Shown here piece by piece: positions 5,222 through 63,153 of a stretch of 64,000 nt of DNA (position 1 is the first letter of the stretch; each line of letters begins with the position of its first letter). The notes under the pieces are model-generated. The model did no database searches. It had not been told where the DNA came from and was given only the letters and a program-made list of their open reading frames with translations. The stretch is from positions 1-64,000 of the IMG/VR virus record IMGVR_UViG_3300024239_000132. One strand, written 5' to 3'. Made by a program: the position numbers and the translations under genes. The DNA comes from a virus.

Positions 5222-5309
5222 TGACCTTGGCAATAAGTGGGACAGCGACACAACTGTCATGGATGTCCTAAAGCACAATGCCGTTATAGATAAACTTTGT
5301 GGACACTGA
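5061..5309 (+). CDS. o-spanin lipoprotein (Rz1-like)
   Basis: Lipobox LTAC; overlaps the i-spanin 3' end in another frame. Confidence 0.75.
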   Translation: MRYDGNSTLRLLVAAVTLSTLTACVRLAPPRTVSDFCLVDQRIQIEPSPAKNADDLGNKWDSDTTVMDVLKHNAVIDKLCGH

Positions 5310-5402
5310 ACCCATAGATAAGTTGGGTTTCTAAAAGTGGACACAAAGAATCTTTAGATGCAAAGGGAGAATAACCACACTCAATCTTAGGTTGTTCCGA
5401 AA

Positions 5403-19800: not shown

Positions 19801-22800
19801 CCAGAACAGGAAGCAAAACCTGTTACAGTAGAGCAGGCATACCCGAATCTGTTCGAGACCGAGAAGGTCAAGAACTGGTTTCGTCGTGCCTACAAGTTCC
19901 CCAAGGAAGTTCGCTCTCGCTTGGTTGGCAAGGACAGTCCGCTATCGTTCATCAACGAAGCGGTGCAGTCGAATGATACTTACTCGAAGCTGCTCGAAGG
20001 CAAGTCGACCAAGACCCTGACGGCTGATGTCGCCAAGGCTTATGCTGACTTTCTGGCCGTTGGCAGTGATGTCTTTGTCGAAATGGACAAGAGCCTCGAG
20101 AAGTTCTTGGACAGTGCCCAGAACAAGAAAGAAGGCACCACTTTCCGTGATGCCCTGACCAATGGTCTGAGCCTTGATAGCGGCAATCAGGTCAATGGCT
20201 TTCCTCGCGGTAAAGCCCTGAACATTGTTGAGCAGAACGAAGATGGTTCGTTCTCTTACAATGAGCAGTTGGCTGAGGCTGCAATCCTCGCCGGCCTTCA
20301 GTGGATGGTCACTGCCAAGGATCGCATGCGTGAGCTCGATGCCGAGGAAATTGCCAAGATCACTGGCCTCACCGAAGCCGAAGCAACCGAGCATGTGAAC
20401 TTCTTTAATGATGGTCTGTGGCGTGTTGCTGCAAAGCGTGATCTCGCCAATCTCATCACACGCTACTGGGGTGTGCAAGGCAACCGTGAAGCTCCTGAGG
20501 GCTATGTCCGTGGTATTGCTGAAGGTGTGGCGTCTGAGGTTCTGCGTGGCTTGCAGGCTTCTGGTATGCTCATTGAGGATGGCCGCAAGATCGATGGTAA
20601 AGATCATGTGCTGTTCCGCTTTACGGACGAAGCCCAAGACCACTTTGACAGGATCGCTGCCTTCCCGTCAGCAATCGAAGAGGCAGTGCTCGTCGAACCG
20701 GAGAACGTGAACTACATTGGTTCGGCTCCGGGTGAGGTCGCAACCAATCAACTGCACGGATCTCCTGTTCCTCTGCTGGATCAGCAGAAGCAAGCACTGG
20801 AAGCTGCCCAGAATACACCATTCACGCTCAACCTGAATATGCTGAGCTTTCTTGAGATGCTCGGTGAGGAAGGTGTGTTGGCTCTGTTCGGAAAGGGTGA
20901 TCCCACTGGCCGTGGTCTCCTCAAGAAGACTGCCGAGACGATCAAAGGCTACAACCAGACAGTGCTGTCCGGCTATAAGCACCTGACCAATCTTGTCCGT
21001 GAGATGGACAACGTGGCCGACACTACCGGAACCAAGGTAGAAGAGCTGCCTGTGTTCTTCCGTTACGGTATCTCGTCGGTTGGCCGTATGCAGATGCAGG
21101 GCCGTGCTTCGCCCCAGGCAAGCAAGCTGGTTCGTGAGGTTCTGCTGCCTACGTGGAGCACCTTGGATCTGAGCCAGGTTGGTTCGGAACAGCATAATGC
21201 TTTCCTGCTGGCTGTGGGCCAACACATTGGGGTCAAGGTTCACAAGCTGAAGCCTGGCCAGGCCATCGAAAAGACCATGGATGAGCTCGGCACTAAGTAT
21301 GCTGGCATCGTCGAAATGATGTCGCAGTGGCTTGCTACCGAAGGCGCCGAAACTTGGGGTCAGGCAGAGATCGACCGGATCAAGTCGGTCTTGGGGAACA
21401 AGGTCGCTCCCGGTGCCGTGCATGCTTTAATGGAGTATGCCCGTTACCTCAACGACCTCGATGGTCGTAAGGCTCTCCGCACTGGCCTGTATCTTGAAGC
21501 TGACGGTGTGACCGATGGTCCAGTCAATGCCCTGATGAATCTGGTGGCTGGCAAGTTCACACCAGGGTGGCTGGATCTCATGAACCGTGGTGGCATGTAC
21601 CTTGGATCTAATCCGGTATCTCTTGCCGATTATGTCACCCGGTCAAAGGACAGCTCTGAGGATCTGTACCAGAAGACCACCAACTTCCTCTACGAGCACC
21701 TGTCTTCGTTGTGGGACAAGCTCTCGTCGAGCTCGCGTGCAAGCGAGATGAGCAACATGATGGGTGATCTGTTCATCGATCTGCTGCCTGATGTTCGGGT
21801 AGAAGATGGTCAGGTCAAGTTCGAGCGCGGCATTGCCAAGAATCCCCTGACCGTGACGGTATATGGTTCTGGTGTCCGCGGTATTGCATCGAAGCTGACC
21901 GCTGGTCTGTTGGAAGAGCTCTACGATAGGCTGTCCACCGGTGAGCAGCTGCTGCCTCAGACAGAGCGTGCTCTGCGTGTTTTGACCACTACCAAGCTGA
22001 CACGCAAGTTCGGCAAGTACAATGCTGTCCGGGTTGAAGGGATCAATCTCAACACCGGTTCTGGTGTCGACTTCGAGCTGACCAAGGACATGATCAAGAT
22101 CCTTGAAGATAACGTGATGCAGCTGTTTGCTCGGCCGCTGACCGGAGCTGTTCGAGAGATCATGGATGACGCTCTTGAGACTGCCACCACGCTACGGATG
22201 GCAACTCAGGCTCAGTCTATTTTCTTCAAGTATGCCTACCGTCAGGCCATCGCTGATGCGATTGCCAACAAGGACGGATCAGATGGCACTCTTGGTTCGG
22301 ACTTCCTGTCCCAGGCTGAACTGGATCAGATATTCAAGGATCTTCAGAAAAAGTTTCCGATGATCAATACCGGTACTCAGATGATCTGGGTAGGTGGCTC
22401 GGCTGAGGCCGATATCGAGCAAGCTGAATTCGGCGGTGCTCTGGATGGCAGTCTGCGTTCGCCGGGCTATACCTATGGTCCAGAGAACTCTGGTGTTTCG
22501 GGTATCCCATTCATTGTCATCTCGACGGGTGATGGTCAGATGATCCTGAATGCACTGACCGGAGAACAAGCGCCTCAAGGCACTCTGCCGGTGTTCGATG
22601 GCATCAACATGAAGCTCGACACGATCAAGTCTGACAGCGAGCAAATCAACAAGGCTGTCTATGATGGCTGGGCCAAGAATCCTGTTCGTGCTGTTCAGCA
22701 GAGCTTTGCCCGGTTCATGGCCAACCTCGATACCAGCAATGTCTCTGATGAGATGAATGCTGAACTTGAGCAGGCTTTCAGGGATGGACCTGATTTCACT

Positions 22801-25800
22801 TACGTCGACCCGGCTTTCCATCTTGGAGAGGTAGCCTATCAACTCGATAAGGCTGCCAATGAGCTAGATGCTCGCAAGGCAGTGTTGGCCAAGGTCAACA
22901 TGTCGGTTGATCACATGGCATCGGCTGCTGCACCGTTCACCAAAAGTGATGGTGTAGGGCTGCCAGCTGATCCGACTGAGGCCGCCAAGGTCCTCAACGA
23001 GATGTATGCTGAGGAACTGGCCAAGGTTACTAAGAAGAAGCCCGAACCAAGGGCAGAAGTGTCCGAAGATATCTCCGCTGCTCTTGGTTCAATCGGTACG
23101 CTCCACTCCAGTGGTGCCAGAATCATTAGCCGGGACGCTATCCGACAAATTGTCGGTGAGCTCAACATCCCTCTGGATCAGCGGGGCCTGTTGCGTTCGT
23201 CGGTCAATGCTCTGGCAACCAAGGGCTGGACAGTGCTCCATGGCACGCCTGAGCAGCTCATCGAGTATGCCCGTGAGAATGGCCTTAAGGTTCCTTACGG
23301 CTTCAACGACAGCAACGGCATGGTCTTGCCAGCAGACAAGGTGATGTTCCTCACCTCTGCCAATAGCGAGACCATGACCCATGAATTCCTGCATGCTGCT
23401 ACCGTGCAGCTGATCCACGCCCACTACTCGGGCAATGGTCAGGTAGCCAAGGCAGTGCCTGATGCTGTTAAGCGTCTCGAACTGCTGATGGCAGACTTCC
23501 TGGCGATCGATCCAAGCACGATTGAAGATCAGGAAACTCGTGCAGAATTTAAATTTGTTAAAGAGCAGATCGACAAGTTCGATGAGAGCTCAATGAGCGA
23601 TGCCAATATCAAAACCGGCAAGCTCTCCGAGTTCATGGCTTGGACCCTTGCGAACCAGAAGCTGTCGGATCTCGCTCGCAAGACCAAGGTCAAGAGCAAA
23701 CTGGCTCTGATTGCTGACAAAGTTCTCGAGACGCTCAAGAAGCTATGGCGCCAGACTGGTCTGGCTCCCACCCCTCGAGATGATATCTACAGCAACGTCC
23801 GTTTCAACACTCTGTTGCTGATGGAGAACAAGCAGAAGTCGGTGCTGGATCCTGCATCGGTCACCAGCATGGCCCAGTTCCAGGCTCGCAACTACGGTGG
23901 CAGTGATCGGCTGATCGAGCTAGAGAAGTCGTTTGCTCGCAAGATGTTGGCTGCGCTTCCTACTGAACCAACACGACGATTCCGTATCGATCAGAAGTAT
24001 GAAGCGATGCACCGCATGGCTGGTCAGGTTCGCAAGACTTTCCAGTCCAATGGCTTTGCCATGAACCAGAAAGAAGCATCGTTCTTCGAGACCTTGGTCA
24101 TGGCTCTGGCCGTCGACAAGTCGCTCAACGCCAATGCTCAGTCTCGGGCTGAAGAAGTCTTCCGTGAGGTTCTGTCGAAGCTCAAGGTCGAAGATTTCAT
24201 GGAAGATCCTGATAGCCAGGATCAGTACGATCGTGATCAAGCGAACCTCAAGTTCAACACCGTGGTGGGCAATGCTTTCGTCGGACGGGATCTGTCTAGC
24301 CGTACCATGCTCATGCCTGCGTTCCTGGCTCTGGCAATGGTACATGAGCCCTTCCGCAATGCCCTTTCCAAGATGGATCTGCCCAAGTTTCAGAAGAGCT
24401 CTGAGGGCACTCTGGATGCATTGCTCAGTAACCTTGGCAATGAAGGTCTCGATCGCCTTGGCCGTACCCTCTCCGGTGAAGGCAAGTCGGATAATGTGCT
24501 CGATGCTGTCGAAGCCCTAACCCGCAAGCTGGCTGAGGTCCAGTCTGAGCGGGAAGCTGTTATCGAGACGCATATCGATGCCGTCGGCAATACGATCGAC
24601 AAGACGAATAACTTCGTGGTCGATCAGATGAATCGCTTGAGCCGTGAAGGGTACGATCGGCTTCAGGATGTTGTTGAAAACTCCGACAACAAGTATGCCC
24701 GGGGTGCAGCTCGTGCAGCAGCTGCCGTGGTGAGCTTCTTCAATGAGGACATCTCCGGCGCCAATGCCGAGTTCGCTCTGAAGCTGTCGGACAAGTCCAC
24801 TGTCTGGAAGCCTTTGCGTGAGCTTCTGGTGGAAGTGATCGGCCGTACTGACGAGAATGCTCCGATCTACGATATGATCAAGGCTGTCCGGTCCTACATC
24901 CAGCAGACCCGTCAGATCTATCGTGAGCGTCTGCCCAAGTTTCTGTCGGAGAAGTTTTCGAGGAAGCTCTCGAAGCAGGAATGGTCTGGCATGTACCATG
25001 TCATGGCCAAGACTGATCTGGCTGCCGTTGCTTCCCTTGGTTCAAAGCGTGTTCTGGATATGCTCCGGGATGCTGGCAAGCTGCGTCAGGAGACTGCTGC
25101 TCTGGAGCGTCAGATTGACAAGCTGGATTCGGTGCATTCGACCAAACTCAAGACTAAAGCCCGAGAGCTGGCTGAATACATGATGCTGCGTAAGGTAAGC
25201 AGCAATTTGCTGACCAATGCTGAAAGTGTGGCCAACCTTTATGGTGAGCTCACGGCTCAGCAGCGCAATAGCCGTGGTGTACCTAAGAAGGCTCTGATCC
25301 AGGCAGTCGATCAGCTGGCTACGCTGTACGCTCTGGATCTTAGCGGAGCCAAGAATCGTCAGGTTGTGGCTGAGCTTGCTGCCAAGGAAACCGGCGGCGT
25401 GGAGTTCATGTTGAATTACCTGAAGGGTCAGCGTCAGAATGAACAGGGCAAGGCTCGTAGTGGCCGGGCACAGGTCAACCACATCAAGGGCTACGTCCCG
25501 ACGGAAATCCGTTCAGGTGCAAGCCTGATTGTCGCTCCGGATTTGCAGCACAACGATCTGGCGGCTCGTGGTTATACCCGGGTTGCTCCTTACAAGGGCT
25601 CGGCTGCCGAGGGTCCTTCTGGTTCGCAGAGCTATTATTTTGCTCCGCTGTCTGCCCGGGCACAGTTCAATCAGGGCATTGCCCAGAACGTTCGCTCGAC
25701 CTTTTCTGGCGTTGATCCGGCATCGGGCTTCAGCATTGAAAATTATGGCCTTGGTCGAATTACGAACCAGGAAGCTGTTCGCAAGATCACTAGCCGCATT

Positions 25801-27234
25801 CGGATGAACCGCGGATCTGAGGCTCTCATACCCATTCGTGACGAGTTCGGTGATGTTGTGGCTTACGAACGCACGCTGGATCCTGCTCAGCTGGCCAAGC
25901 TGGAACGTGAAGAAGATCTGTCCAAAGTTTTGGGTATCTGGCGTGGTAGGCAGCTGGAAGAAGCTTCTGCTGACCAGTTCAATCAGATTCTGGTCGAGCG
26001 TCTTCACGATATGTGGGACAAGCGCTCGGTCGGTGACGAGGAAGCGTTCGTCGACTTGTTCGATCCCAAGTCCCACAAGGATCCGGTGGTAAGTGATGCC
26101 GTGAAGCTGTTCACTCCCCAGATGCGTCGACACATCGAGAACGCTTTTGGTGGTGAAGGCTTCATGGTTCGCAAGAGCATGATCAACGATGTCGTCGGGT
26201 ATCGCTCGGCTTCGATCGGTGATCTGTGGACTGGTGTGACGAGGGTACCGCCTGAGACTGCCAAGGTGGCTGCCAATGTACTGACCGCGGTAATGGGCAA
26301 GGATGCCTACAAGTACCTCGTTACTGGCGAGAAGCTATGGCAGAACTTTGTGTCTGATGCTCGTACTACGATCGTGGTTCGCTCGGTAATCGTTCCTGCC
26401 TCGAACATCATCAGCAACGTCTATCAGCTGGCTTCTCGAGGTGTACCGCTCAAGGATATTCTTCGTGGCATGCCCAAGAAGCTTGCTGAGATTCAGGCAT
26501 ATCACGAGAACCACCAGAAGGAGATCAAGCTGGAAGCAGAGCTCCTCTCGGTGCAGAATGATCCTACCAAGAGCCGCGCTCTGAAAGCTCAGATCCAGTC
26601 CCTCAAAGATGGACACCGGCGCCTGAGCATTTGGCCTCTGATTGCCGCCGGTGAGTTCTCGTCGGTTTCGGAAGCTACCGTGATGCGGGAAGAGTCGACG
26701 TTGTTTGAAGGCAAGGTGACCCAGTACATGGAGAGCCTGGTCGACAAGCTGCCTGACTTGGTTCGCACTGCTGGACGTTATGCGATTATCTCGCGGGATA
26801 CTGCCCTGTTCCAGGGTCTCCAGCGTGCTGTCGAGTACGGGGACTTCCTGGCCAAGGCAGTTCTCTATGATGATCTGACCAAGCGTCAGGGCTTGGATAA
26901 GGACAAGGCTCGAGCCAAGGTTAGTGAAGAGTTCGTGAACTACGATCGTCTGCCTGGCCGTTTCCGCGGTACCTTGGAAAATATGGGTCTGATCTGGTTC
27001 TGGCACTTCAAGCTTCGGGCCATCAAGATTGCCATGTCGACGCTCCGGAACAATCCGTTGCATTTCCTCATGGCAGCTGCTGTCCCGGCTCCTGACTTCT
27101 TCGGATCGGTGGGTCTGCCGGTTACGGATAACGCTCTGGCAGTGGCAGCTGAGGGCAAGCTGAACTATTCCATCGGACCATTGCAGGGCCTTCATGCCCA
27201 TGCACTTAATCCTTGGATGAATCTGTTGGGATAA
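16876..27234 (+). CDS. Virion-encapsidated RNA polymerase (N4 gp50-like)
   Basis: 3452 aa; T7-family motifs SSVGRMQM, LEADGVTDGP, RGIAKNPLTVTVYG, VFDG; no Cys seen in the translation, as in N4 vRNAP. Confidence 0.97.
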   Translation: MSGYTDFLKRFTVANVGPVPVQQPNADTFYKIAAARQNGTGQSNSDPVEQDLQSLSTSEIIAKYGPVGLTMVQQRAMGDARYTRDRYDPAGSTLTDTAMSVGKGFANSVGGLVNLGVGLVNDDAGAWTAEKLGDFNSWVQSKQSDGLNAHRRANKVTNEISFADNKAIYENERKSEGDFLASLRRIGRDAMSAVGNASSDGTILTDGIADAGGSLLSGGLISKGARVLGSKLVQGLLARGVLSEGAALKAADVGGRVSMPGTIGGMEAGGAYQQTVQQVMAMSHDDLVAGSPEYVKLLQEGWDPEDAQVELATSAGLTAAAIQFPVAAAAGTLVSKFEANPFKGAFSGLGIVKNGANEAIEEAVQSGFGQLAGNVGTRAFADQNQDLTDGVGEQAGLGALYGFGSAAAVQVPGSAASAAIAGTVAAAKGAKVLGNKAVDAFDKRLTSVKEGIDQLNPVSKDNINTAVEQTLTEAPAVAQQVQADVEAGTLTPEQGDAIKQRLDTLQQSIAFDPVEIEDRNLSPAVKSVIGSATNKFDALQKAAQLAGSKQVDVPSRIEAALYINDTLNKFGAQLIGDFTSAIDIVPDDHASLPKLREFEDVLINFQQNPELQQARQAAQQYVERMQAEALSEQAVATPKGQQAVRGVVSVAESNPESVSEDLANLVLEHARMGRVKLTPQQTRVLTNAAVLSKTGNTYKLEAKKRELKPTDIVRAQVLTDEMKATPEAKGEALSLAQHVRGINDAYRASNLELAAQRLKRLSDFAQHFQNKVAALNTAYETGANSDRNAVEFEGLSLKGAWGAKGRAWISPTKVGSIKLAQSVALEAKALADMANGMAQSMPELGIGPVTPVELNPDLVGPSTKVAQRFQNAPEKAPTKLIELEETAKVEPAQAEPSKAQTESVAPKAEVTENVTPSPTKTVEAEPVDKPVDEVSTEPVETSPAVEPVEAPESSDRASDQESTKAETQTEEAKADPEQEAKPVTVEQAYPNLFETEKVKNWFRRAYKFPKEVRSRLVGKDSPLSFINEAVQSNDTYSKLLEGKSTKTLTADVAKAYADFLAVGSDVFVEMDKSLEKFLDSAQNKKEGTTFRDALTNGLSLDSGNQVNGFPRGKALNIVEQNEDGSFSYNEQLAEAAILAGLQWMVTAKDRMRELDAEEIAKITGLTEAEATEHVNFFNDGLWRVAAKRDLANLITRYWGVQGNREAPEGYVRGIAEGVASEVLRGLQASGMLIEDGRKIDGKDHVLFRFTDEAQDHFDRIAAFPSAIEEAVLVEPENVNYIGSAPGEVATNQLHGSPVPLLDQQKQALEAAQNTPFTLNLNMLSFLEMLGEEGVLALFGKGDPTGRGLLKKTAETIKGYNQTVLSGYKHLTNLVREMDNVADTTGTKVEELPVFFRYGISSVGRMQMQGRASPQASKLVREVLLPTWSTLDLSQVGSEQHNAFLLAVGQHIGVKVHKLKPGQAIEKTMDELGTKYAGIVEMMSQWLATEGAETWGQAEIDRIKSVLGNKVAPGAVHALMEYARYLNDLDGRKALRTGLYLEADGVTDGPVNALMNLVAGKFTPGWLDLMNRGGMYLGSNPVSLADYVTRSKDSSEDLYQKTTNFLYEHLSSLWDKLSSSSRASEMSNMMGDLFIDLLPDVRVEDGQVKFERGIAKNPLTVTVYGSGVRGIASKLTAGLLEELYDRLSTGEQLLPQTERALRVLTTTKLTRKFGKYNAVRVEGINLNTGSGVDFELTKDMIKILEDNVMQLFARPLTGAVREIMDDALETATTLRMATQAQSIFFKYAYRQAIADAIANKDGSDGTLGSDFLSQAELDQIFKDLQKKFPMINTGTQMIWVGGSAEADIEQAEFGGALDGSLRSPGYTYGPENSGVSGIPFIVISTGDGQMILNALTGEQAPQGTLPVFDGINMKLDTIKSDSEQINKAVYDGWAKNPVRAVQQSFARFMANLDTSNVSDEMNAELEQAFRDGPDFTYVDPAFHLGEVAYQLDKAANELDARKAVLAKVNMSVDHMASAAAPFTKSDGVGLPADPTEAAKVLNEMYAEELAKVTKKKPEPRAEVSEDISAALGSIGTLHSSGARIISRDAIRQIVGELNIPLDQRGLLRSSVNALATKGWTVLHGTPEQLIEYARENGLKVPYGFNDSNGMVLPADKVMFLTSANSETMTHEFLHAATVQLIHAHYSGNGQVAKAVPDAVKRLELLMADFLAIDPSTIEDQETRAEFKFVKEQIDKFDESSMSDANIKTGKLSEFMAWTLANQKLSDLARKTKVKSKLALIADKVLETLKKLWRQTGLAPTPRDDIYSNVRFNTLLLMENKQKSVLDPASVTSMAQFQARNYGGSDRLIELEKSFARKMLAALPTEPTRRFRIDQKYEAMHRMAGQVRKTFQSNGFAMNQKEASFFETLVMALAVDKSLNANAQSRAEEVFREVLSKLKVEDFMEDPDSQDQYDRDQANLKFNTVVGNAFVGRDLSSRTMLMPAFLALAMVHEPFRNALSKMDLPKFQKSSEGTLDALLSNLGNEGLDRLGRTLSGEGKSDNVLDAVEALTRKLAEVQSEREAVIETHIDAVGNTIDKTNNFVVDQMNRLSREGYDRLQDVVENSDNKYARGAARAAAAVVSFFNEDISGANAEFALKLSDKSTVWKPLRELLVEVIGRTDENAPIYDMIKAVRSYIQQTRQIYRERLPKFLSEKFSRKLSKQEWSGMYHVMAKTDLAAVASLGSKRVLDMLRDAGKLRQETAALERQIDKLDSVHSTKLKTKARELAEYMMLRKVSSNLLTNAESVANLYGELTAQQRNSRGVPKKALIQAVDQLATLYALDLSGAKNRQVVAELAAKETGGVEFMLNYLKGQRQNEQGKARSGRAQVNHIKGYVPTEIRSGASLIVAPDLQHNDLAARGYTRVAPYKGSAAEGPSGSQSYYFAPLSARAQFNQGIAQNVRSTFSGVDPASGFSIENYGLGRITNQEAVRKITSRIRMNRGSEALIPIRDEFGDVVAYERTLDPAQLAKLEREEDLSKVLGIWRGRQLEEASADQFNQILVERLHDMWDKRSVGDEEAFVDLFDPKSHKDPVVSDAVKLFTPQMRRHIENAFGGEGFMVRKSMINDVVGYRSASIGDLWTGVTRVPPETAKVAANVLTAVMGKDAYKYLVTGEKLWQNFVSDARTTIVVRSVIVPASNIISNVYQLASRGVPLKDILRGMPKKLAEIQAYHENHQKEIKLEAELLSVQNDPTKSRALKAQIQSLKDGHRRLSIWPLIAAGEFSSVSEATVMREESTLFEGKVTQYMESLVDKLPDLVRTAGRYAIISRDTALFQGLQRAVEYGDFLAKAVLYDDLTKRQGLDKDKARAKVSEEFVNYDRLPGRFRGTLENMGLIWFWHFKLRAIKIAMSTLRNNPLHFLMAAAVPAPDFFGSVGLPVTDNALAVAAEGKLNYSIGPLQGLHAHALNPWMNLLG

Positions 27235-41268: not shown

Positions 41269-41356
41269 TTGAATTTCCTTCAGCAAGACCGCAGCACAGA
41301 GCCCAAGGAAAACCGTAGGTTTTCCTGACAGGCTCGGATGTGCGTAGGTCTTGCGG

Positions 41357-42913: not shown

Positions 42914-43026
42914 GTCTGTTCCATACGAAGAGACCGGAGAGTCGCCTCCCCGGTCTGATATTTTCAAACAAATGTCTAGTCTGTTTGAGGTGAGCTCCCA
43001 CAATCTTTGAGATTGTCAGGCTTGAG

Positions 43027-52166: not shown

Positions 52167-53273
52167 TCAAGCCTTCCTCAGTTTGATCTTGGTCTTGGCC
52201 TCGGCTCTAGCAATGCCTGCGAGCTGGGCTTCATGGACCTTGTTGGCGATCTCTTCTGCGTGGGTGTAGGTACGCTTCATCAAATTGACGTCAGCCCACC
52301 CACCAAAGGCAGCAGCTGCCTTCTCGTCGATAGAGTGCCTGACGTTCAGTTCCTGACCGAAGCCATGTCTGCCGGCGGCATGGAACGGGATGAATTCTAT
52401 CTTGGCTTTCTCGATAGCCTTGTTCCAAGCCTTGCGAGGAGAAGATCTTTCGGCATAGCCGAATAGGCGCCGGTTACGATCGGTATGTTCCCAGCCTCTG
52501 GGATAGAGTTCAGGTGGCAGCTCTCTGAGTTCGGCCGCCAGCCATTCAGGGATATCGAGCCAGCGATCTCCCATTCCCTTGGCTCCAGGAATGCACAGCC
52601 TTGATCCGGCAGAATCGAAATGGCTGGGGTGCATTTCCATAGCCTGAGAAATTCGAGCACCGGTAGCGAACATGGTCAGAGCCAGAGCTCTCACTCTTGG
52701 TTCGGCATGCTCGCAGAATTGGAGGATCCATTCCCATGAGCCAGGAGGATAATGCTTTCGGCCAGATGAGCCTCGTCTCTTGTCCTGCCTGGTTCGCTCC
52801 TGACGATCATAGCCCTTGATTTTAATGGGGGCACATTTGCCCAGATCATGGGCATTGTTGATGACAGATCGGACAGGAGTCAGAACCTGACGGGTCCATG
52901 TGACGGTACCAGCATCAGGGTAGATTTCTCGAGCGAGTTCTCTCACCATTTTGGGGGTGATCTCGATCAGAGGCTTTTCACCCCATTCCTCGAGTATCGG
53001 TATAAGATAGCCGGCAGTCTTGGCATTGGCCTCGTACAGCAGACAGGCTTCGGCAAAGGTGAATGCCTTTTCCTCTTCCTTGTCTGCTGTTTCAGGACCA
53101 AGCAGAAAGCGTCGGACTATCCTTGCTTCTTCCTGCCTGCACCACTCCCACGCACCTTGCTCTGATAGAGCTCCAGTGCTTTTCTGGTAGTAGTCTGAGA
53201 TGGGCCGGCCTTCGTGCGTGACTCGACCTTTGGCCCACCATTTGGTGCCTCTGAGGTACGGTTCGAGCGGCAC
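52167..53273 (-). CDS. int: Tyrosine recombinase (phage integrase)
   Basis: TGARISQ (R), GAKG (K), FHAAGRH (H..R), GGW (W), RTYTH (Y); N-terminal arm-binding-like region. Confidence 0.92.
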   Translation of the reverse strand: MPLEPYLRGTKWWAKGRVTHEGRPISDYYQKSTGALSEQGAWEWCRQEEARIVRRFLLGPETADKEEEKAFTFAEACLLYEANAKTAGYLIPILEEWGEKPLIEITPKMVRELAREIYPDAGTVTWTRQVLTPVRSVINNAHDLGKCAPIKIKGYDRQERTRQDKRRGSSGRKHYPPGSWEWILQFCEHAEPRVRALALTMFATGARISQAMEMHPSHFDSAGSRLCIPGAKGMGDRWLDIPEWLAAELRELPPELYPRGWEHTDRNRRLFGYAERSSPRKAWNKAIEKAKIEFIPFHAAGRHGFGQELNVRHSIDEKAAAAFGGWADVNLMKRTYTHAEEIANKVHEAQLAGIARAEAKTKIKLRKA

Positions 53274-53512
53274 TTCTCACCTTCCTTGAGTATCAGTTCC
53301 ATGTGACCCACGGTGATCAGCATGGTTCGTCCGAGCTTTATCCGAGCACCGAGCTTGTTGGCCTTCTCTCTGAGACTCCGTTCAGAGATGGTAATGCCCT
53401 TCTCGGCCAGCAACTCCACCCATTCGGATGGTTGCTTTCCGTGTTCGATGACATGGGGAACAGACGGGTTCAAGGGAATGAAAGAGCGACCGATGAAGTC
53501 ATGCACAGCCAT
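53117..53512 (-). CDS. Excisionase-like winged-HTH protein
   Basis: ISERSLREKANKLGARIKLGRTMLIT; overlaps the int 5' end. Confidence 0.6.
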   Translation of the reverse strand: MAVHDFIGRSFIPLNPSVPHVIEHGKQPSEWVELLAEKGITISERSLREKANKLGARIKLGRTMLITVGHMELILKEGEKCRSNRTSEAPNGGPKVESRTKAGPSQTTTRKALELYQSKVRGSGAGRKKQG

Positions 53513-53523
53513 GGGTCAGCCTT

Positions 53524-54042
53524 TCACTCAAAGATCGATGCCACCGGCTCGTCAGCTTGGTTGGCGTACTTGCCAGTGTAAGCAGCTGGATGAGCGATCT
53601 GGTGGAATATCACTTGTGCGATTCCCGAACCAGCAGGGACGTGAATGAGTTCCGGCCCATTGAAGGTCAGTTCCAGGGTCAAGTGGCCCGACCATCCCGG
53701 TTCAAGGTTGGTAGTCCTACTGGCGTCGAGACCTACCCTCGCCCAGGTGGATTTGTTGAGCACATGGCCCATCAGGTCATTGGGAAGGTCGAAGCATTCT
53801 AGAGATGATGCCAGAACGAATGAACCGTAGGTTCTCGGACCATCATCTACACGATACATCGGTGGTCGATGCATTTCCCCGCTGAAGTGATACAGTGGGG
53901 GGTAGAATGTGACGCTCTGCTTGATCCGAATATCGTAGCCACATTCCGTCAGGCCATGGCTAACGCCATTATGTTTGACCTTGCGAGCGAGCATGTCCTT
54001 GATCGGAGCTGCCTTGAGCAAGCTGGGTCCGTTGATGACCAT
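53524..54042 (-). CDS. dcd: dCTP deaminase
   Basis: GYDIR, NKSTWARVG, LEPGWSGHLTLE, GIAQVIF, YTGKYANQ. Confidence 0.92.
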   Translation of the reverse strand: MVINGPSLLKAAPIKDMLARKVKHNGVSHGLTECGYDIRIKQSVTFYPPLYHFSGEMHRPPMYRVDDGPRTYGSFVLASSLECFDLPNDLMGHVLNKSTWARVGLDASRTTNLEPGWSGHLTLELTFNGPELIHVPAGSGIAQVIFHQIAHPAAYTGKYANQADEPVASIFE

Positions 54043-54209
54043 TAGATCACTCCTGTGAGTACGGACAGCAGCCGGGTATGTTCGAAATCGAGCCTACCCT
54101 GTGCCTTGTTCCGCTCATTTGCATCACGGTGCCCGGCACTTACATGTTCACGGACAGCGTATTCGAAGTCAGCGATCAGCTTGAAAGCTGCACGCTTGGA
54201 AGTGGCCAT
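54042..54209 (-). CDS. Small hypothetical protein (55 aa; not in ORF track)
   Basis: MATSKRAAFKLIADFEYAVRE..; start and stop coupled to both neighbours. Confidence 0.6.
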   Translation of the reverse strand: MATSKRAAFKLIADFEYAVREHVSAGHRDANERNKAQGRLDFEHTRLLSVLTGVI

Positions 54210-54628
54210 CAGCCTCGATCCTCCCGAAGCATCTCACCGATGCGGCAGCCGATAGCGTTGTAGATCCGTTCGATCTCACGCTGGTCTGCATCTTCGATGA
54301 GCCAGTTCTGGATGTACTCGACAGTCAGGATCTTGCTGAGCTGAGGCGTCATCGGAGCAGGCTTGGGATCAGCCCTCACTTCTTCCACTGGTTCAGCCGG
54401 AATGCTGTCCGACAGGTCGACCGCGGTATCCGTGACCTCGATGTTCTCAGGCGCCTGAGGCTGGCTGTTAAGCAGTTCGTCGAGCATCTGCTGGACCCAT
54501 GCCATGAGACCAGACTTGTCGGTCGGGATATCGATCTGGGAATAGTCCTTGTTGACCTTCCCTGCATCAGCCTGGGTACCAAGTATCCTGGTATGGCCCG
54601 CTACATCGACGGCGAGATAGAAAATCAT
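54209..54628 (-). CDS. Hypothetical protein
   Basis: In operon. Confidence 0.65.
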   Translation of the reverse strand: MIFYLAVDVAGHTRILGTQADAGKVNKDYSQIDIPTDKSGLMAWVQQMLDELLNSQPQAPENIEVTDTAVDLSDSIPAEPVEEVRADPKPAPMTPQLSKILTVEYIQNWLIEDADQREIERIYNAIGCRIGEMLREDRG

Positions 54629-54670
54629 CTAAATCTCTTTCTTTTTGATTGACAATGTGAAGTATAGTCG

Positions 54671-54694
54671 CAATAACGGCTACGCCGTTATTGG
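54671..54694 (+). promoter_or_regulatory. N4 vRNAP-type hairpin promoter candidate (template = minus strand, +1 at 54693)
   Basis: Template reads CC-AATA-ACGGC-GTA-GCCGT, the N4 CC-N4-stem-GC-GNA-GC spacing. Confidence 0.55.
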
Positions 54695-54724
54695 CGACAC
54701 TCCAACATTATTGAGGAAATACTA

Positions 54725-54787
54725 ATGGAACTCAGCACTATTGCTTGGATAGCACTGGACGTTGCCATCTGGTTGTTCGGAGACTGA
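54725..54787 (+). CDS. 20-aa hydrophobic peptide
   Basis: GAGG SD; MELSTIAWIALDVAIWLFGD; has its own terminator. Confidence 0.55.
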   Translation: MELSTIAWIALDVAIWLFGD

Positions 54788-54794
54788 CTCAACC

Positions 54795-54821
54795 ACCCCC
54801 GGAGTGATCCGGGGGTTTTTT
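54795..54821 (+). terminator. Rho-independent terminator
   Basis: ACCCCCGGA-GTGA-TCCGGGGGT followed by TTTTT. Confidence 0.85.
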
Positions 54822-56014
54822 CATGCGTTGATGCAAATGAGCTGGCCAAACGGAACCTTGGCTTCTCTGCCATTGATGGCGATCCAGATGGTGGGACACT
54901 TGGGTCCCGGCTGCATCGGTGTGACGTACATATCGGAGAAGATGATGGCTGCCGTCGGATTGACATCCATCATGTGCTGACGGATTTCCTTGAAGCAGGT
55001 GCCACCACGACCTTGAACATCGATCCCATCGAAGGGATCATCTTCGGTCAGCTCGACAATCTTCTGAATCTTGGTGTCAAACATGACGATGGTCATCTTC
55101 TCAGGATTGTACTTGGTCTTGATGGCCTTCACTTCGGAGTTCATCCGGTCGGTGACTGGTCCTCTGGTGGAACCAGAAACGTCCCAGTAGAATGCCAGAT
55201 GAGTAAGGCGTTCATCGCTTTCCAGGGAGGGCATGTAGATGTCCGGATACCGACGGTTTGGACGCCGGTAGGTATAGTCATCCGAGCACCTCTCATCGAG
55301 AAAGCGATCGAGCAGCACATCCCAAGCAACCTTAGGGGTAAGGAACTTGTTGATGTGCTCAACAACAGATCCAGGAACAGCGCCAGGCTTGCCGGCCGCT
55401 ACTGCTGTGTGAGCAGCCTGGATCACATTGTTGATGGCCCTCTGGGTATCTTCCATGGACATTTGAGGAGCCATATCCTGCCCATTGGTTCCACCTGTAG
55501 GCATATTCCCTTGTGGACCAGACGATGGATCTCCATCAGCTGAACCAGGACCACGAGGGGCACATGGGGGGTCTGGCAGATCGGCATAGATATCTTCTAC
55601 TGCCCATCCCCGGTACTTTTCGTCCCAAATGAAGTAAGGACTCTCAACGGCATAGCCGTCTTTCTTGAGGTTGTTGTTGATGTCGATATCGCAGGCGATG
55701 TTCCATTTCTTCGGATCCCTGTCGCCCATACGAGCGAAGTGAAGATTGGCGGGATGCCAGATCTCGTGAAGCAGAGTGGATTTCCTGAGCTCAGGGGTGA
55801 GCTCAAGGAAATCATTGGGATTCCACCAGACATGGATGCCGTCAGTCGCAGCTGTCTGCACATCCAATGTCCAGATGAATTCCATACCGCACATCAGGGG
55901 ACCCAGGAATGCTCCATTGTCCCCCAGAAATGCTGCTGTCTTGGCTCGATCGAACTCCTGATTAAGGGAGTCCATATCGAAGCCAGAATCGCTGGAAAGC
56001 GGTCGGAAGCTCAT
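54821..56014 (-). CDS. Metallopeptidase-vWA protein (N4 gp25-like)
   Basis: TAATDG, HEIWH, WNIACD; vWA DVSGS, GRGGT. Confidence 0.88.
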   Translation of the reverse strand: MSFRPLSSDSGFDMDSLNQEFDRAKTAAFLGDNGAFLGPLMCGMEFIWTLDVQTAATDGIHVWWNPNDFLELTPELRKSTLLHEIWHPANLHFARMGDRDPKKWNIACDIDINNNLKKDGYAVESPYFIWDEKYRGWAVEDIYADLPDPPCAPRGPGSADGDPSSGPQGNMPTGGTNGQDMAPQMSMEDTQRAINNVIQAAHTAVAAGKPGAVPGSVVEHINKFLTPKVAWDVLLDRFLDERCSDDYTYRRPNRRYPDIYMPSLESDERLTHLAFYWDVSGSTRGPVTDRMNSEVKAIKTKYNPEKMTIVMFDTKIQKIVELTEDDPFDGIDVQGRGGTCFKEIRQHMMDVNPTAAIIFSDMYVTPMQPGPKCPTIWIAINGREAKVPFGQLICINA

Positions 56015-56172
56015 CGATCCCACCTTTTGAAAGTAAGCCGGTGTGCCCATTCCCTTCCTAGATCGTAAGCGTAATCCAGATGGGTGTATGGGCACTCTTC
56101 GGTGCGGTTGGGGTCAGCCCAGGTAAAGCCCAAGCGAAACTCGAACATGCCCAGTAGAAAGGCTCGAAGCAT
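56011..56172 (-). CDS. Small conserved-type phage protein (53 aa; not in ORF track)
   Basis: MLRAFLLGMFEFRLGFT..AYDLGREWAHRLTFKRWDR; ATGA overlap. Confidence 0.65.
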   Translation of the reverse strand: MLRAFLLGMFEFRLGFTWADPNRTEECPYTHLDYAYDLGREWAHRLTFKRWDR

Positions 56173-56187
56173 AATTGCCTCCCTGGT

Positions 56188-57267
56188 TCAGGCAGCGTTC
56201 TTGAGCTGGCGATCCTGAGGATTAAGATACTGCGACAGTGCCACCATTGCCTTGATGAAAGTCGGATGGCTGTGCAGCTTAGCGTTGCCGGCAATCGCAG
56301 TGCGATAGAACAGGATACGGTTCTCGATACCGAAGCGGTCCATGTACTGAGCCAGAGGACCAAAGGTCTTGTCGTCAGCTTCAGTGGCCAGCTTCATCGT
56401 CACTGCCCAACGGGTAGCCGTATCCCCAGGGATGTTGGCTGACATTGGGTCATTGATGATGGCCCGGATATCCGGAAGCGAAGCGTAGACCTTGGTGAAC
56501 TGCACGAAGTCGACAGCTACGCCTGGGCTGATGGTGCCGACATAGAGAGGAGTCTTGGCATCAGTGATCTCCTGATCTTTGATTAAGCGATTCATGAACT
56601 CCCAGGTACGTTGGCAGCAGAACGTATCGTTCTTGTGATCCGGCTTGAAGTCGTTGAGCGAGCTGGGCTTCCAGTTGAGGTAAGCAATGATCCGCGGATC
56701 ATACTTCTGGGGCGTAGCTACGTCTTCGAGCCACTCCTTGAAGTCCGTCCGCATCTTGATGTGAACCACACGGCTCTGGAGTGCAGTGCCGATACGGGTA
56801 GTGATGGCGCCGTCGGTATCATGGTTGCCGGCCATGGTTGGGGCAACGAATTCATGCAGACGGTGCTGGCCTACCATGCGATCGAGAATCAGCTTGTAGG
56901 AAGCTGCCTGGACTGCCTTGGTGGCCGAGTTGGCCTCATCAAGGAATAGCATCCAGCCCTGCTTGTTCTTGGGCAGAGGAATGCCTTCCAGTGGGAAGAG
57001 CTCCTCGAATGGCATGAAGGCAGCCTTACCATCTTCAGTGAAGCGGGGCAGACCATTCATGTCCGTCGGTTCAGAGGTGCTGAGACGATGATCGATCAGC
57101 TGGAGTTCCAGCTTGTCAGCGACCTGACGCATGATCGAGCTCTTGCCCATCCCGGGCGAGCTTTTCACGAAAGGAACCAGACCAGCATAGATACAGTCTT
57201 CGACGAACTGTGCGGTCTGGCGGGGAGTGCATTCGTAAATGGAATCGAGAGTTGCCTGGTTCGACAT
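56188..57267 (-). CDS. MoxR-like AAA+ ATPase (N4 gp24-like)
   Basis: SSPGMGKS, LFLDEAN, AGN, ALQSR, RTWE. Confidence 0.9.
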   Translation of the reverse strand: MSNQATLDSIYECTPRQTAQFVEDCIYAGLVPFVKSSPGMGKSSIMRQVADKLELQLIDHRLSTSEPTDMNGLPRFTEDGKAAFMPFEELFPLEGIPLPKNKQGWMLFLDEANSATKAVQAASYKLILDRMVGQHRLHEFVAPTMAGNHDTDGAITTRIGTALQSRVVHIKMRTDFKEWLEDVATPQKYDPRIIAYLNWKPSSLNDFKPDHKNDTFCCQRTWEFMNRLIKDQEITDAKTPLYVGTISPGVAVDFVQFTKVYASLPDIRAIINDPMSANIPGDTATRWAVTMKLATEADDKTFGPLAQYMDRFGIENRILFYRTAIAGNAKLHSHPTFIKAMVALSQYLNPQDRQLKNAA

Positions 57268-57289
57268 GGGGTATTCCTCTATTGAGAGC

Positions 57290-57736
57290 TTAAAAAGGGA
57301 AGATTGGTTCGATGCTGTCACCTAAAGGAACCGCATCTAAGTTGATCTCTGGAGTCGGAACAGTAAGTAAACAGCTGTCGTCTGCCGAGGTACGACGTTC
57401 CACGTCGCCATCTTCTTCTCCGCAGCGATAGAACTCGTAAGAGAGATCGAATGCCTCTTCAGCCGTTTCTAGGAGCTGGTTCCATGCTCTGACGCAAGTG
57501 TAGTCGTCGTACCACTTCCATCCGGATACTTCTAATTCCAGCATACCGAATACGGTCGGCAGATACTGTTCAGCCTTGGCGTCCCAAGTTTTGGTTTCGA
57601 AGAGATAGCGCTTTAGGGCGCCATCAAACTCCTTGAGACCCATGTCTTCTCCGGAGAGCTGCTTTGAAGCAAGCAGAGCAGTGATCTTGTCATTGTCGCC
57701 ATAAATGATTGAGCGGACGTTTGAGCGGTAGCCCAT
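57290..57736 (-). CDS. Hypothetical protein
   Basis: MGYRSNV..WKWYDDY..RCGEEDGD. Confidence 0.7.
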   Translation of the reverse strand: MGYRSNVRSIIYGDNDKITALLASKQLSGEDMGLKEFDGALKRYLFETKTWDAKAEQYLPTVFGMLELEVSGWKWYDDYTCVRAWNQLLETAEEAFDLSYEFYRCGEEDGDVERRTSADDSCLLTVPTPEINLDAVPLGDSIEPIFPF

Positions 57737-63128: not shown

Positions 63129-63147
63129 CCAAGAGGCGCGAAGCGCC
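63129..63147 (-). promoter_or_regulatory. N4 vRNAP hairpin promoter (template = plus strand, +1 at 63130)
   Basis: CC-AAGA-GGCGC-GAA-GCGCC matches N4 early promoter geometry (G-8, C-9, GAA loop); intergenic, upstream of the RNAP II operon. Confidence 0.8.
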
Positions 63148-63153
63148 AGGGCA

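What the first reader, a model, noticed from the sequence alone, without database searches (positions are those of the whole stretch)
54649..54821. Antisense mini-operon: N4-type hairpin promoter, 20-aa hydrophobic peptide, terminator
Seen: within a minus-strand operon, a plus-strand unit has a perfect inverted repeat whose template strand reads CC-AATA-ACGGC-GTA-GCCGT, then a GAGG SD, MELSTIAWIALDVAIWLFGD and a strong U-tailed terminator. A TTGACA lies at 54649. Established: N4 vRNAP promoters are template hairpins CC-N4-stem-GC-GNA-GC, located in the early region, with a purine preferred at the loop centre (here T). Inference: a separately controlled membrane micropeptide about 1.2 kb from xis/int; it could be a type I toxin-like maintenance factor, an exclusion peptide, or a vRNAP-sensing response of a lysogen to superinfection by N4-like phages.
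Basis: partly seen in the sequence, partly recalled or inferred. Interest (0 to 1): 0.8.

Follow-up and report, generated by a model that had tools for sequence, protein, structure and literature searches.

The report
Backward-facing 20-residue peptide gene

Summary
All the described elements are at the stated coordinates: TTGACA, a perfect 10-bp/3-nt-loop palindrome, GAGGA, a 20-codon ORF and a T-tailed terminator. The unit is real. A relative with only 47% identity in the neighbouring vWFA gene (L073) has the same antisense cassette in the same place. Its 20-codon ORF is conserved in that frame alone.

Both phages have the order vWFA, cassette, ORF, dCTP deaminase, xis, int.

The N4-promoter reading is not supported as the driver, although the resemblance is real. 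The loose pattern matches 4 times in the genome against 0.043 per shuffle. The other three matches are the phage's own early promoters, on the other strand. Against it:
- the loop centre is T;
- the stem buries +1;
- the loop is flipped in the nearest relative;
- L073 has no such loop.

My best reading is a moron-like micro-gene read by host RNA polymerase, back-to-back with the integration-side operon. The peptide's function is unknown. No transcript data exist. This scan has noted similar antisense micropeptide cassettes in other phages.

The parts
54649..54654 (+). TTGACA hexamer. It is kept in the close variants and absent at the equivalent place in L073. Its role is doubtful.
   Evidence: It lies 8 nt from TATAGT, or 17 nt from AATAAC (54672-54677). 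No promoter is reported here by the consensus scan.
54660..54668 (.). Conserved AAGTATAG(T) motif. On + it reads TATAGT (54663-54668), a -10-like hexamer for the micro-gene. On - it reads TATACT (54666-54661), a -10-like hexamer toward the 139-aa / dcd / xis / int genes. I infer a back-to-back promoter core.
   Evidence: AAGTATAG is identical in the window and L073. L002 and X2 have AAGCATAG. AGTATAG occurs only 3 times on + and never on - in the genome. Promoter function is inferred, not shown.
54667..54698 (.). Palindrome. The core is 10 bp + 3-nt loop + 10 bp (54671-54693). An outer stem GTCG / CGAC with a bulged G54694 extends it. On the minus strand it reads like the phage's early promoters; on the plus-strand RNA it would be a 5' stem-loop.
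   Evidence: The outer stem and the following GGCGAC-ACTCC align by eye with L073's ATCGCC..GGCGAT-AACTCC, with the outermost pair changed G-C to A-T. The loop is flipped in L002 and X2.
54699..54724 (+). 5' leader with ACTCCAACA and the Shine-Dalgarno GAGGA (54713-54717), 7 nt before the ATG.
   Evidence: L073 has AACTCCCAAAACA and GAGGA, also 7 nt before its ATG. There are no differences here in L002 or X5.
54725..54787 (+). 20-codon ORF plus stop: MELSTIAWIALDVAIWLFGD.
   Evidence: The L073 homologue MEPTTIWWIIYNVAKYMISE is also 20 codons. Only this frame of six is conserved: BLOSUM62 score 40 against <=12 for the others. Permutation p = 1.5e-4, and identities at codon positions 1/2/3 are 13/12/8 of 20. 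The only change in L002, X2 and X5 is synonymous, TTG to CTG at 54773.
54795..54822 (+). Intrinsic terminator for the plus strand: stem ACCCCCGGA / TCCGGGGGT, loop GTGA, then a T run. It abuts the stop codon of the minus-strand vWFA gene (54821-54823).
   Evidence: The spacing, stem starting 10 nt after the first base of the stop codon, is the same in L002 and L073. The loop is flipped in L002 and X2. In L073 the hairpin has T-rich tails on both strands.

Best explanation
This is an autonomous, moron-like micro-gene on the late (plus) strand of an integrase-carrying N4-like phage.

Shown:
- A compact unit of leader hairpin, GAGGA ribosome site, 20-codon ORF and intrinsic terminator sits antisense between the vWFA gene and the operon that ends in xis and int.
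- The unit and its reading frame are kept in a distant relative with the same gene order.

Inferred:
1. It is transcribed by the host RNA polymerase from a weak -10-type promoter in the conserved AAGTATAG(T) motif. That motif, read on the other strand (TATACT), may also start the integration-side operon, so the two units would be back to back.
2. The RNA, about 150 nt, begins in or at the palindrome, which gives it a 5' stem-loop, and ends at the terminator.
3. It is translated into an acidic, aromatic-rich helical peptide. The peptide acts on its own, at the membrane interface or on a protein partner, in lysogens and/or late in infection.

What the peptide does is not known. An accessory or lysogen-expressed role such as exclusion or host modulation is my guess, not a result.
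For: 1. Anatomy.

2. Conservation of the whole unit in L073 (vWFA 47% identical). It is antisense, directly 3' of vWFA, with AAGTATAG, a hairpin, GAGGA + 7 nt, 20 codons, and a terminator starting 10 nt after the stop codon begins.

3. Coding signature.
- 8 of 20 residues are identical, and 5 of those have different third bases.
- The other five frames score <=12 against 40 and carry stops.
- The long sense-strand ORFs of the two phages lie in different frames.

4. Low divergence among close variants.
- In L002, the hairpin-to-stop stretch shows 2 events in 119 nt, against 29 in 419 nt for the neighbouring gene (p = 0.026).
- In the X5 contig there is 1 difference in 157 nt against 9 in 97 nt (p = 0.0009).

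5. Indel character.
- The strict scan found the unit in 2 of the 80 IMG/VR loci taken with the vWFA profile, L002 and L073.
- Directly 3' of vWFA it was found only in L073. In L002 a 557-bp inserted gene separates it from vWFA.
- The relaxed scan of 240 loci found nothing else like it.
- Four IMG/VR pattern scans found only those same two records.
- GC is 47% against 54.5% for the genome.
- The junction beside the terminator carries different genes in L002 and in an X5 contig.

6. Precedent. In N4-like phage LUZ7, all genes on the opposite strand, even those inserted in early cassettes, are strictly late. Most late promoters there resemble sigma-70 promoters (section 3.2.1 of PMC9163698).

7. 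In L073 the int-side module is bounded by terminators, so a promoter must lie inside this gap.
Against: - There are no transcript or translation data: no RNA holder was listed, and the phage is uncultured.
- The consensus scan calls no sigma-70-type promoter at the cassette in the window or in L073.
- No good -35 is conserved.
- The plus-strand hexamer is CATAGT in L002 and TATAGA in L073, which lacks the final T. The minus-strand reading (TATACT, TATGCT, TATACT) fits the -10 rules better, so the motif may serve only the other operon.
- Only two independent lineages carry the cassette, which leaves conservation statistics thin.
- Low divergence among the close variants could reflect recent recombination rather than selection.
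- The palindrome's match to the phage's own early promoters is unlikely by chance, and this reading does not explain it.
- Five of 14 cassette-less relatives also carry an integrase, so the unit is not a required part of lysogeny.
Confidence: 0.55

Rival explanations
1. The palindrome is a working DNA-hairpin promoter for a phage polymerase (the virion RNAP, or RNAPII as at LUZ7 middle promoters). The strand carrying the G-N-A loop sets the direction: toward the micro-gene in this genome and X5, and toward the 139-aa / dcd / xis / int operon in L002 and X2.
For: - The pattern CC-N4-N3GC-GNA-GCN3 (complementary) occurs 4 times in the genome against a mean of 0.043 in 300 Markov shuffles. Three copies are GAA-loop hairpins in front of small early ORFs, with the plus strand as template (63129, 65621, 67316). 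The fourth is this one, on the minus strand.
- It also shares -10G, -8G, -9C, +1C and the A at -1 and -4 with those three (requirements from passages of PMC4496689).
- GCGTAGC forms a stable DNA mini-hairpin, Tm 70 C against 76 C for GCGAAGC (passages of PMC13037366).
- LUZ7 middle promoters are hairpins with stem >=6 and loop 3-4 (PMC9163698).
- Because the arms are palindromic out to +1, either loop orientation gives a promoter-like hairpin.
- A second long intergenic hairpin, at 41306-41326, has a GTA loop here and GCA in G2, on the template strand of the minus genes.
Against: - Position -11 is T, whereas vRNAP recognises A/G there. All three of the phage's own early promoters have A.
- The double- to single-strand junction should lie between -5 and -4, with at most 2 bp melted in the solved complex. 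Here 5 or more further pairs cover -4 to +1.
- The review states that vRNAP promoters are constrained to the genome end that is injected first. This one is 8.4 kb or more away and in the opposite orientation.
- The loop orientation is not kept between close relatives that keep every other part of the cassette.
- L073's hairpin (ATCGCC GA GGCGAT) has no triloop on either strand and does not resemble that phage's own GAA-loop hairpins.
- The terminator loop flipped in the same lineage, which is what neutral palindrome inversion would give.
Confidence: 0.12
2. The working product is the RNA, or the act of transcription, and the peptide is incidental. A convergent small transcript would act as an antisense or insulator element separating the replication-gene operon from the integration-side operon. 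Alternatively it is a small regulatory RNA.
For: - Nucleotide-level conservation exceeds that of the flanking coding DNA, including the untranslated leader.
- Both versions fold strongly: z = -4.62 and z = -4.13.
- The position is exactly at an operon boundary.
- In L073 the terminator reads as bidirectional.
- Any read-through of the minus-strand operon is fully complementary to this RNA, which follows from the geometry.
Against: - The six-frame test and the third-position pattern point to selection on the peptide.
- A strong SD at the same 7-nt spacing, the exact 20-codon length and the stop-to-terminator spacing are all kept.
- The internal RNA structure predicted for the window is not predicted for L073.
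- Rfam gives only a sub-threshold match at the terminator: NsiR1, 17.9 bits against a gathering score of 39.
Confidence: 0.12
3. It is a type I toxin-like module. The small hydrophobic peptide would damage the membrane, and the complementary operon read-through, or an unseen antisense RNA, would hold it in check.
For: - The window's peptide is short and hydrophobic: GRAVY 1.25, mean Eisenberg hydrophobicity 0.57.
- The predicted fold partly pairs the SD in the window.
- The unit is antisense within an operon.
- Very short hydrophobic toxins of about 19 residues are known in E. coli (Ibs/Sib; recalled, not checked here).
Against: - No dedicated antisense gene is visible. No promoter-like or terminator-like site lies on the minus strand within 54629-54820.
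- SD sequestration is not predicted in L073.
- The peptides are acidic (net -3 and -1) with a polar residue at position 12. The L073 version is only weakly hydrophobic, GRAVY 0.26.
- There were no Pfam hits.
Confidence: 0.08
4. The ORF is a chance reading frame between two structural elements, a palindrome and a terminator, that serve the neighbouring minus-strand genes.
For: - The ORF is only 20 codons.
- No protein family match was found, and there was no match in cultured phages.
- No expression data exist.
Against: - The same length, start, SD spacing and stop-to-terminator spacing occur in a relative whose surrounding non-coding sequence is otherwise unalignable, and only this frame is conserved.
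- In the window the terminator has a T tail on the plus strand only, so there it cannot serve the minus-strand genes.
Confidence: 0.05

Closest known systems
Phage 'morons': independent promoter-gene-terminator units inserted between genes of a phage operon, with HK97 gene 15 as prototype (PMC3594210; abstract and one passage seen)
   Same: - It looks like an addition present in few relatives.
- It has its own terminator.
- Its GC is lower than that of its surroundings.
- It sits in a phage that carries an integrase.
- A variable gene junction lies beside it.
   Different: - The promoter is not demonstrated.
- The product has only 20 residues.
- The unit is antisense to the surrounding operon.
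- The host phage is N4-like, where prophage expression has not been studied.
- It is kept at one position in two diverged lineages rather than scattered.
Opposite-strand genes inserted in early cassettes of N4-like phage LUZ7 (orf34, orf35), transcribed strictly late by host RNAP from sigma-70-like promoters (PMC9163698, section 3.2.1 read)
   Same: - It is a gene on the late strand embedded among early/middle genes of an N4-like phage.
- It would be expected to depend on host polymerase.
   Different: - No sequence relation was tested.
- Here the gene is a 20-codon ORF with its own terminator.
- It lies next to an integration module, which LUZ7 lacks as far as I know (recalled).
N4 virion-RNAP early promoters (template-strand hairpin with 3-nt G-R-A loop; PMC4496689, passages read)
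   Same: - G-C closing pair.
- 5' G and 3' A of the loop.
- -10G, -8G and +1C.
- Spacing to +1.
- Close likeness to this phage's own three early promoters.
   Different: - T at -11.
- 10-14 bp stem that pairs -4 to +1.
- Wrong strand and wrong region.
- Loop orientation not conserved.
- Absent from the homologous cassette of L073.
Short type I toxins with antisense RNA (for example Ibs/Sib of E. coli; recalled, not consulted here)
   Same: - Very short hydrophobic peptide.
- Structured leader.
- Its own terminator.
- Complementary transcription possible.
   Different: - No dedicated antitoxin RNA gene was found.
- The peptide is acidic.
- SD sequestration is not conserved.
- Toxicity is untested.
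Antisense micropeptide cassettes noted earlier by this scan in other phages (e1-5727715 and e1-4041281; AI notes, not evidence)
   Same: A backward-facing mini-gene with its own start signal, ribosome site and terminator, kept as a translated very short peptide.
   Different: - Different phage groups and positions.
- No sequence relation is known.
- Not checked by me.

Membership tests
N4-type vRNAP hairpin promoter | Template-strand hairpin with a 3-nt loop, a G-C closing pair, and 5' G and 3' A in the loop | tested here: inconclusive
   Met on the minus strand of this genome and X5 (GC-GTA-GC). In L002 and X2 the same loop lies on the other strand. In L073 there is no triloop.
N4-type vRNAP hairpin promoter | Purine at the loop centre (-11) | tested here: not met
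   T at 54682 on the template strand. The requirement -11 A/G comes from PMC4496689. The phage's own three early promoters all have A.
N4-type vRNAP hairpin promoter | -10G, -8G and +1C | tested here: met
   The template reads CC-AATA-ACGGC-GTA-GCCGT.
N4-type vRNAP hairpin promoter | Stem of 5-7 bp, with -4 to +1 single-stranded (junction between -5 and -4) | tested here: not met
   There are 10 perfect pairs, 14 with a bulge, covering -4 to +1. The rule comes from PMC4496689.
N4-type vRNAP hairpin promoter | Located at the genome end injected first, and co-oriented with the early genes | tested here: not met
   The early-type hairpins have loop centres at 63141, 65633 and 67328, with the plus strand as template. 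This one is at 54682 on the other strand. The constraint is stated in PMC4496689.
N4-type vRNAP hairpin promoter | Transcription by vRNAP from the predicted +1 | not testable with these tools
   No RNA data (see Tried and rejected).
LUZ7-type hairpin middle promoter (RNAPII) | Hairpin with stem >=6 bp and loop 3-4 nt, about 15 bp upstream of a G start | tested here: inconclusive
   The geometry is compatible in the window (G at 54693, 54694 and 54696) and with L073's hairpin (5-6 bp stem, 4-nt loop). No TSS data exist, and no family of such hairpins precedes the other middle genes; only 41306-41326 was seen.
Phage moron | Extra DNA absent at the same place in related phages | tested here: met
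   The cassette was found in L002 and L073 only, among the 80 IMG/VR loci taken with the vWFA profile. Nothing else like it turned up among 240 loci under relaxed criteria.
Phage moron | Own terminator | tested here: met
Phage moron | Own promoter active in the repressed prophage | tested here: inconclusive
   Only a conserved -10-like motif is present, and the consensus scan reports nothing. Expression is not testable here.
Phage moron | GC content different from the surroundings | tested here: inconclusive
   47.4% against 54.5% for the genome. However, the unit is short and largely non-coding.
Type I toxin-antitoxin | Small hydrophobic membrane peptide | tested here: inconclusive
   The window's peptide is hydrophobic (GRAVY 1.25) and L073's only weakly so (0.26). 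Both are acidic.
Type I toxin-antitoxin | Dedicated antisense RNA gene | tested here: not met
   There is no promoter-like or terminator-like site on the minus strand inside 54629-54820. Only operon read-through could be complementary.
Type I toxin-antitoxin | Leader fold that hides the ribosome site | tested here: not met
   The SD is partly paired in the window's predicted fold and unpaired in L073's.
Type I toxin-antitoxin | Toxicity on expression | not testable with these tools
   Needs an experiment.

The most novel reading that the evidence does not exclude
The palindrome is a two-faced DNA-hairpin promoter for a phage RNA polymerase, and its direction is set by which strand carries the G-N-A loop. 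Inversion of the 3-nt loop, seen between natural variants, would then switch early or middle transcription. One state would feed the integration-side operon (139-aa, dcd, xis, int; L002-type) and the other the micro-gene (this genome, X5). That would be a minimal invertible promoter affecting the lysogeny module of a phage with no recognisable repressor switch.
Probability: 0.06. Interest if true: 0.85.

Novelty: new member of a known kind. Interest (0 to 1): 0.4.

Why it matters
Integrase-carrying N4-like phages were reported only recently (PMC10654107, passages read), and how they control lysogeny is unknown.
- This 192-bp gap is the only obvious independent control region next to the integration-side genes in two diverged lineages. 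It holds a translated 20-residue gene that standard annotation cannot see.
- If host polymerase reads the micro-gene, it is a candidate for the few functions an otherwise silent N4-like prophage expresses.
- The palindrome is a natural test case for what separates a working virion-polymerase promoter from a look-alike: the loop-centre base and the stem length.
- The paired loop inversions show that such palindromes rearrange quickly.

Tried and rejected
**Closer relatives**
- The JGI metagenome and GTDB genome scans gave nothing closer than 44%, apart from one 1-kb fragment.

**Peptide searches**
- Pfam gave no hit for either peptide at E <= 1. PHROGs was not run on the peptides.
- tblastn against 50,697 phage records found no match.
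- blastn of the window region and of the L073 region hit only the vWFA gene of cultured N4-like phages.

**Expression**
- No RNA holder was listed by the look-up of sequencing runs, so nothing can be said about expression.

**Rfam**
- Only a sub-threshold NsiR1 match at the terminator.

**Ideas dropped**
- *T7-like promoter ending in TATAG, read by RNAPII.* AGTATAG never occurs on the minus strand, where the middle genes lie.
- *A shared late-promoter motif upstream of plus-strand genes.* No clear motif emerged.
- *Duplication of an early promoter-RBS module.* Only a 14-nt RBS match (AGGAAATACT.ATG) to the gene behind the 65633 promoter was found, and no wider similarity.
- *The cassette marks integrase-free relatives.* One search found no integrase in G001, but that was a false negative. 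Pfam, PHROGs and PF00589 find one, unrelated by BLASTP to the window's.

**Calls that gave nothing usable**
- fold_alignment misaligned the two hairpins of different length, so its covariation table was not used.
- One search was a mis-specified alignment and gave nothing.
- timed out and was rewritten.

Supplementary files of the papers were not consulted. The LUZ7 TSS tables might bear on promoter geometry.
Full report
**Setting**

The window is bases 1-64000 of a 73,249-bp virus record. It is an N4-like phage.
- A 3452-aa ORF (16876-27234, +) is the virion RNA polymerase size class.
- Structural genes lie on the + strand, and replication and early genes on the - strand.
- Around the finding, the minus strand carries in order:
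  - an AAA ATPase (56188-57321; phrog_1297);
  - a vWFA/metallopeptidase-type protein (54821-56095; phrog_1314);
  - a 139-aa ORF (54209-54628) and a 55-aa ORF;
  - dCTP deaminase (53524-54042);
  - a 131-aa HTH protein (53117-53512);
  - a tyrosine integrase (52167-53273).
- The finding fills the 192-bp gap between the vWFA gene and the 139-aa ORF.

**Observation**

- The palindrome is the longest perfect 3-nt-loop hairpin in the genome. It is the only one with 10 pairs among 40 with stem >=6. It extends to 14 pairs with one bulge.
- The plus-strand RNA from 54669 to 54822 folds far better than shuffles: z = -4.62, 0 of 200 as good.
- A strict scan for ATG + SD + 14-32 codons + strong terminator over 80 related loci found three units. 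Two of them are this cassette.

**Is it conserved?**

*Close variants.*
- A near relative, L002 (92-96% DNA identity), keeps the unit.
- Contigs of two public runs add two more looks. X2, from the same study as the probable source, is L002-like. X5, from another study, is window-like.
- From the hairpin to the stop codon, L002 differs by one synonymous change (54773, TTG to CTG) and a loop inversion. X5 differs by the same synonymous change only.
- The adjacent 139-aa gene differs at 29 of 419 positions in L002. The X5 contig has 9 differences in the 97 nt before the cassette (Fisher p = 0.026 and 0.0009).
- These variants are not independent lineages, and recent recombination could give the same picture.

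*The decisive relative.* L073 is a complete 67.4-kb record with terminal repeats, and its vWFA protein is 47% identical. Directly after its vWFA stop codon, on the opposite strand, it has:
- AAGTATAG;
- a hairpin (ATCGCC GA GGCGAT);
- AACTCCCAAAACA;
- GAGGA, then 7 nt, then ATG;
- exactly 20 codons (MEPTTIWWIIYNVAKYMISE);
- a CCCCGGAGC / GCTCCGGGG terminator beginning 10 nt after the first base of the stop codon, the same spacing as in the window.

*Comparison of the two peptides.*
- They share 8 of 20 residues. Five of those eight use different third bases.
- Identities by codon position are 13, 12 and 8 of 20.
- The ungapped BLOSUM62 score is 39 over the 20 residues, permutation p = 1.5e-4; counted with the stop codon it is 40.
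- Of the six frames only this one is conserved: 40 against <=12.
- The longer sense-strand ORFs that cross the cassette lie in different frames in the two phages.

I take this as good evidence that the ORF is translated and that the peptide sequence matters.

*Spread.*
- No other locus has the unit, among 240 scanned under relaxed criteria.
- Four pattern scans of IMG/VR found only these two records. Records of the window's own genome may be left out by the tool.

**Context is conserved too**

L073 has the same order: vWFA, cassette, a 110-aa ORF, dCTP deaminase, an HTH_17 excisionase-like protein and an integrase.
- The two integrases are not similar by BLASTP. My first integrase search of that record was therefore a false negative.
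- The cassette is not a required part of lysogeny. Five of 14 cassette-less relatives also carry PF00589 (L079, L008, L009, L017, L018). L079 has no gap at all between vWFA and its integrase region. Scans of the others found nothing like the cassette.

**The hairpin-promoter question**

- CCAAGA-GGCGC-GAA-GCGCC;
- CCAAAA-GACGC-GAA-GCGTC;
- CCATGA-GATGC-GAA-GCATC.

Their loop centres are at 63141, 65633 and 67328, and each is followed by GG and a small ORF with an SD. The loose pattern CC-N4-N3GC-GNA-GCN3 matches only these three and the palindrome of the finding (minus strand, CCAATA-ACGGC-GTA-GCCGT). The mean in 300 shuffles is 0.043. The likeness is therefore real and unlikely to be chance.

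*Against.*
1. The review of the N4 polymerases states that vRNAP recognises -11 A/G, -10G, -8G and +1C. It also states that the double/single-strand junction lies between -5 and -4, and that the promoters are confined to the end injected first (passages). Here -11 is T, the stem pairs -4 to +1, and the site is 8.4 kb or more from the early promoters on the other strand.
2. In L002 and X2 the loop reads GTA on the plus strand, so the hairpin faces the other way. The leader, SD, ORF and terminator are unchanged.
3. L073's hairpin has no triloop and does not resemble that phage's own GAA-loop hairpins near its left end.

*How the two hairpins relate.* By eye, the outer stem and what follows it in the window (GTCGC...G-GCGAC-ACTCC) align with L073's ATCGCC..GGCGAT-AACTCC. 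The outermost pair has changed G-C to A-T. The window lineage has an extra 21-nt perfect palindrome in the position of L073's loop. So a hairpin at this place is ancestral, and the promoter-like top is a lineage-specific addition.

*The terminator loop.* It is also inverted in L002 and X2. Of 13 perfect hairpins (stem >=7) shared by the two genomes, only these two flipped. Most of the others lie in coding sequence, where a flip would cost an amino-acid change. I read this as neutral inversion of non-coding palindromes, and I cannot exclude a switch.

**What probably drives it**

- AAGTATAG is the left edge of what the two lineages share. The genes beyond it differ: a 139-aa ORF here and an unrelated 110-aa ORF in L073.
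- On the plus strand the motif gives TATAGT (CATAGT in L002, TATAGA in L073).
- On the minus strand it gives TATACT (TATGCT, TATACT), which keeps the A at position 2 and T at position 6 in all three.
- In L073 the integration-side module is bounded by terminators, so a promoter must lie in this gap.
- In LUZ7, all opposite-strand genes, including those inserted in early cassettes, are strictly late. Late promoters there resemble sigma-70 promoters.

I therefore favour host-polymerase transcription from a weak -10-type core that may work in both directions. The palindrome would form the 5' stem-loop of the small RNA. It may also be a protein-binding site over the -35 position of the opposite promoter. 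None of this is shown. The consensus scans call no promoter here, and no -35 is conserved.

**The peptide**

- Both versions are acidic (net -3 and -1) and rich in Trp/Tyr.
- Both keep polar residues at positions 2, 5, 12, 19 and 20.
- The hydrophobic moment is low: 0.15 and 0.24.
- Only the window's version is strongly hydrophobic.
- A membrane-interface or protein-binding helix is as likely as a membrane-spanning toxin.
- No family matched.

**Type I toxin test**
- There is no dedicated antisense gene on the minus strand.
- SD pairing is predicted in the window but not in L073.
- Toxicity is untested.

**Comparison with the known**

- The unit fits the description of a moron: an obvious addition, with its own terminator and different GC (passage of PMC3594210). 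The promoter remains unproven.
- Integrase-carrying N4-like viruses are in print (PMC10654107, passages). That paper's main text contains none of the terms 'antisense', 'small ORF' or 'hairpin'.
- I did not find this peptide or cassette described. The searches behind that statement were made, none of which targeted it specifically.
- Earlier notes of this scan describe similar backward-facing micropeptide cassettes in other phages. They are leads only.

**Verdict**

- The unit is a real, conserved micro-gene next to the integration-side operon of a small clade of N4-like phages.
- The N4-promoter mechanism is not supported, though the look-alike hairpin and its inversion remain unexplained.
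- The peptide's function is unknown.

Noticed in passing
window 63129-63153; also G000 65621-65645 and 67316-67340 (outside the window): Three N4-type early promoters with the plus strand as template: 5-bp stems, GAA loops and CC at +1/+2. Each is followed on the minus strand by GG and a small ORF with an SD. They place the early region at about 63-68 kb of the record, so the record is circularly permuted relative to the usual N4 map.
   Followed up: partly
window 54681-54683 and 54804-54807, against L002 and run X2: Both non-coding hairpin loops of the cassette are exactly inverted (TAC/GTA and GTGA/TCAC) in one lineage. None of the 11 other perfect hairpins (stem >=7) shared by the two genomes is flipped.
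   Followed up: partly
window 41306-41326: A second long intergenic palindrome, AGGAAAACC GTA GGTTTTCCT, lies between two minus-strand genes. The relative G2 has GCA in the loop, so G and A are kept on the plus strand. It may be a hairpin signal for a phage polymerase.
   Followed up: no
window 42999-43017 and G000 68400-68418 (outside the window): The same 17-nt hairpin, ACAATCT TTG AGATTGT, occurs twice. One copy lies between two minus-strand genes and the other near the end of the early region.
   Followed up: no
L002 5279-5833 (between the vWFA gene and the cassette terminator); window junction 54821/54822: L002, X2 and X3 carry an extra 184-aa gene here with an Nmad5-like C-terminus (PF18757, 3.1e-9). 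One X5 contig continues with yet another sequence at the same junction. The terminator marks a gene-insertion hot spot.
   Followed up: partly
window 52167-53512 against L073 6196-7364: The xis/int pairs of the two cassette-bearing lineages sit at the same position but are not detectably similar to each other. This looks like module replacement or very fast divergence.
   Followed up: partly
window 5270-5345: Two copies of ATAGATAA, each followed at unequal distance by GTGGACAC, lie upstream of the 729-aa plus-strand gene at 5403. This is a possible late-promoter or regulator site.
   Followed up: no
L073 5140-5160: In L073 the cassette terminator has T-rich tails on both strands and is called on both. 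There it may also end vWFA-operon transcripts. In the window only the plus strand has the tail.
   Followed up: no
window 54714-54727 and G000 about 65560-65573 (minus strand): The 14-nt ribosome-site stretch AGGAAATACT.ATG is shared between the micro-gene and the first early gene behind the 65633 promoter. GGAAATACT occurs only at these two places in the genome.
   Followed up: partly
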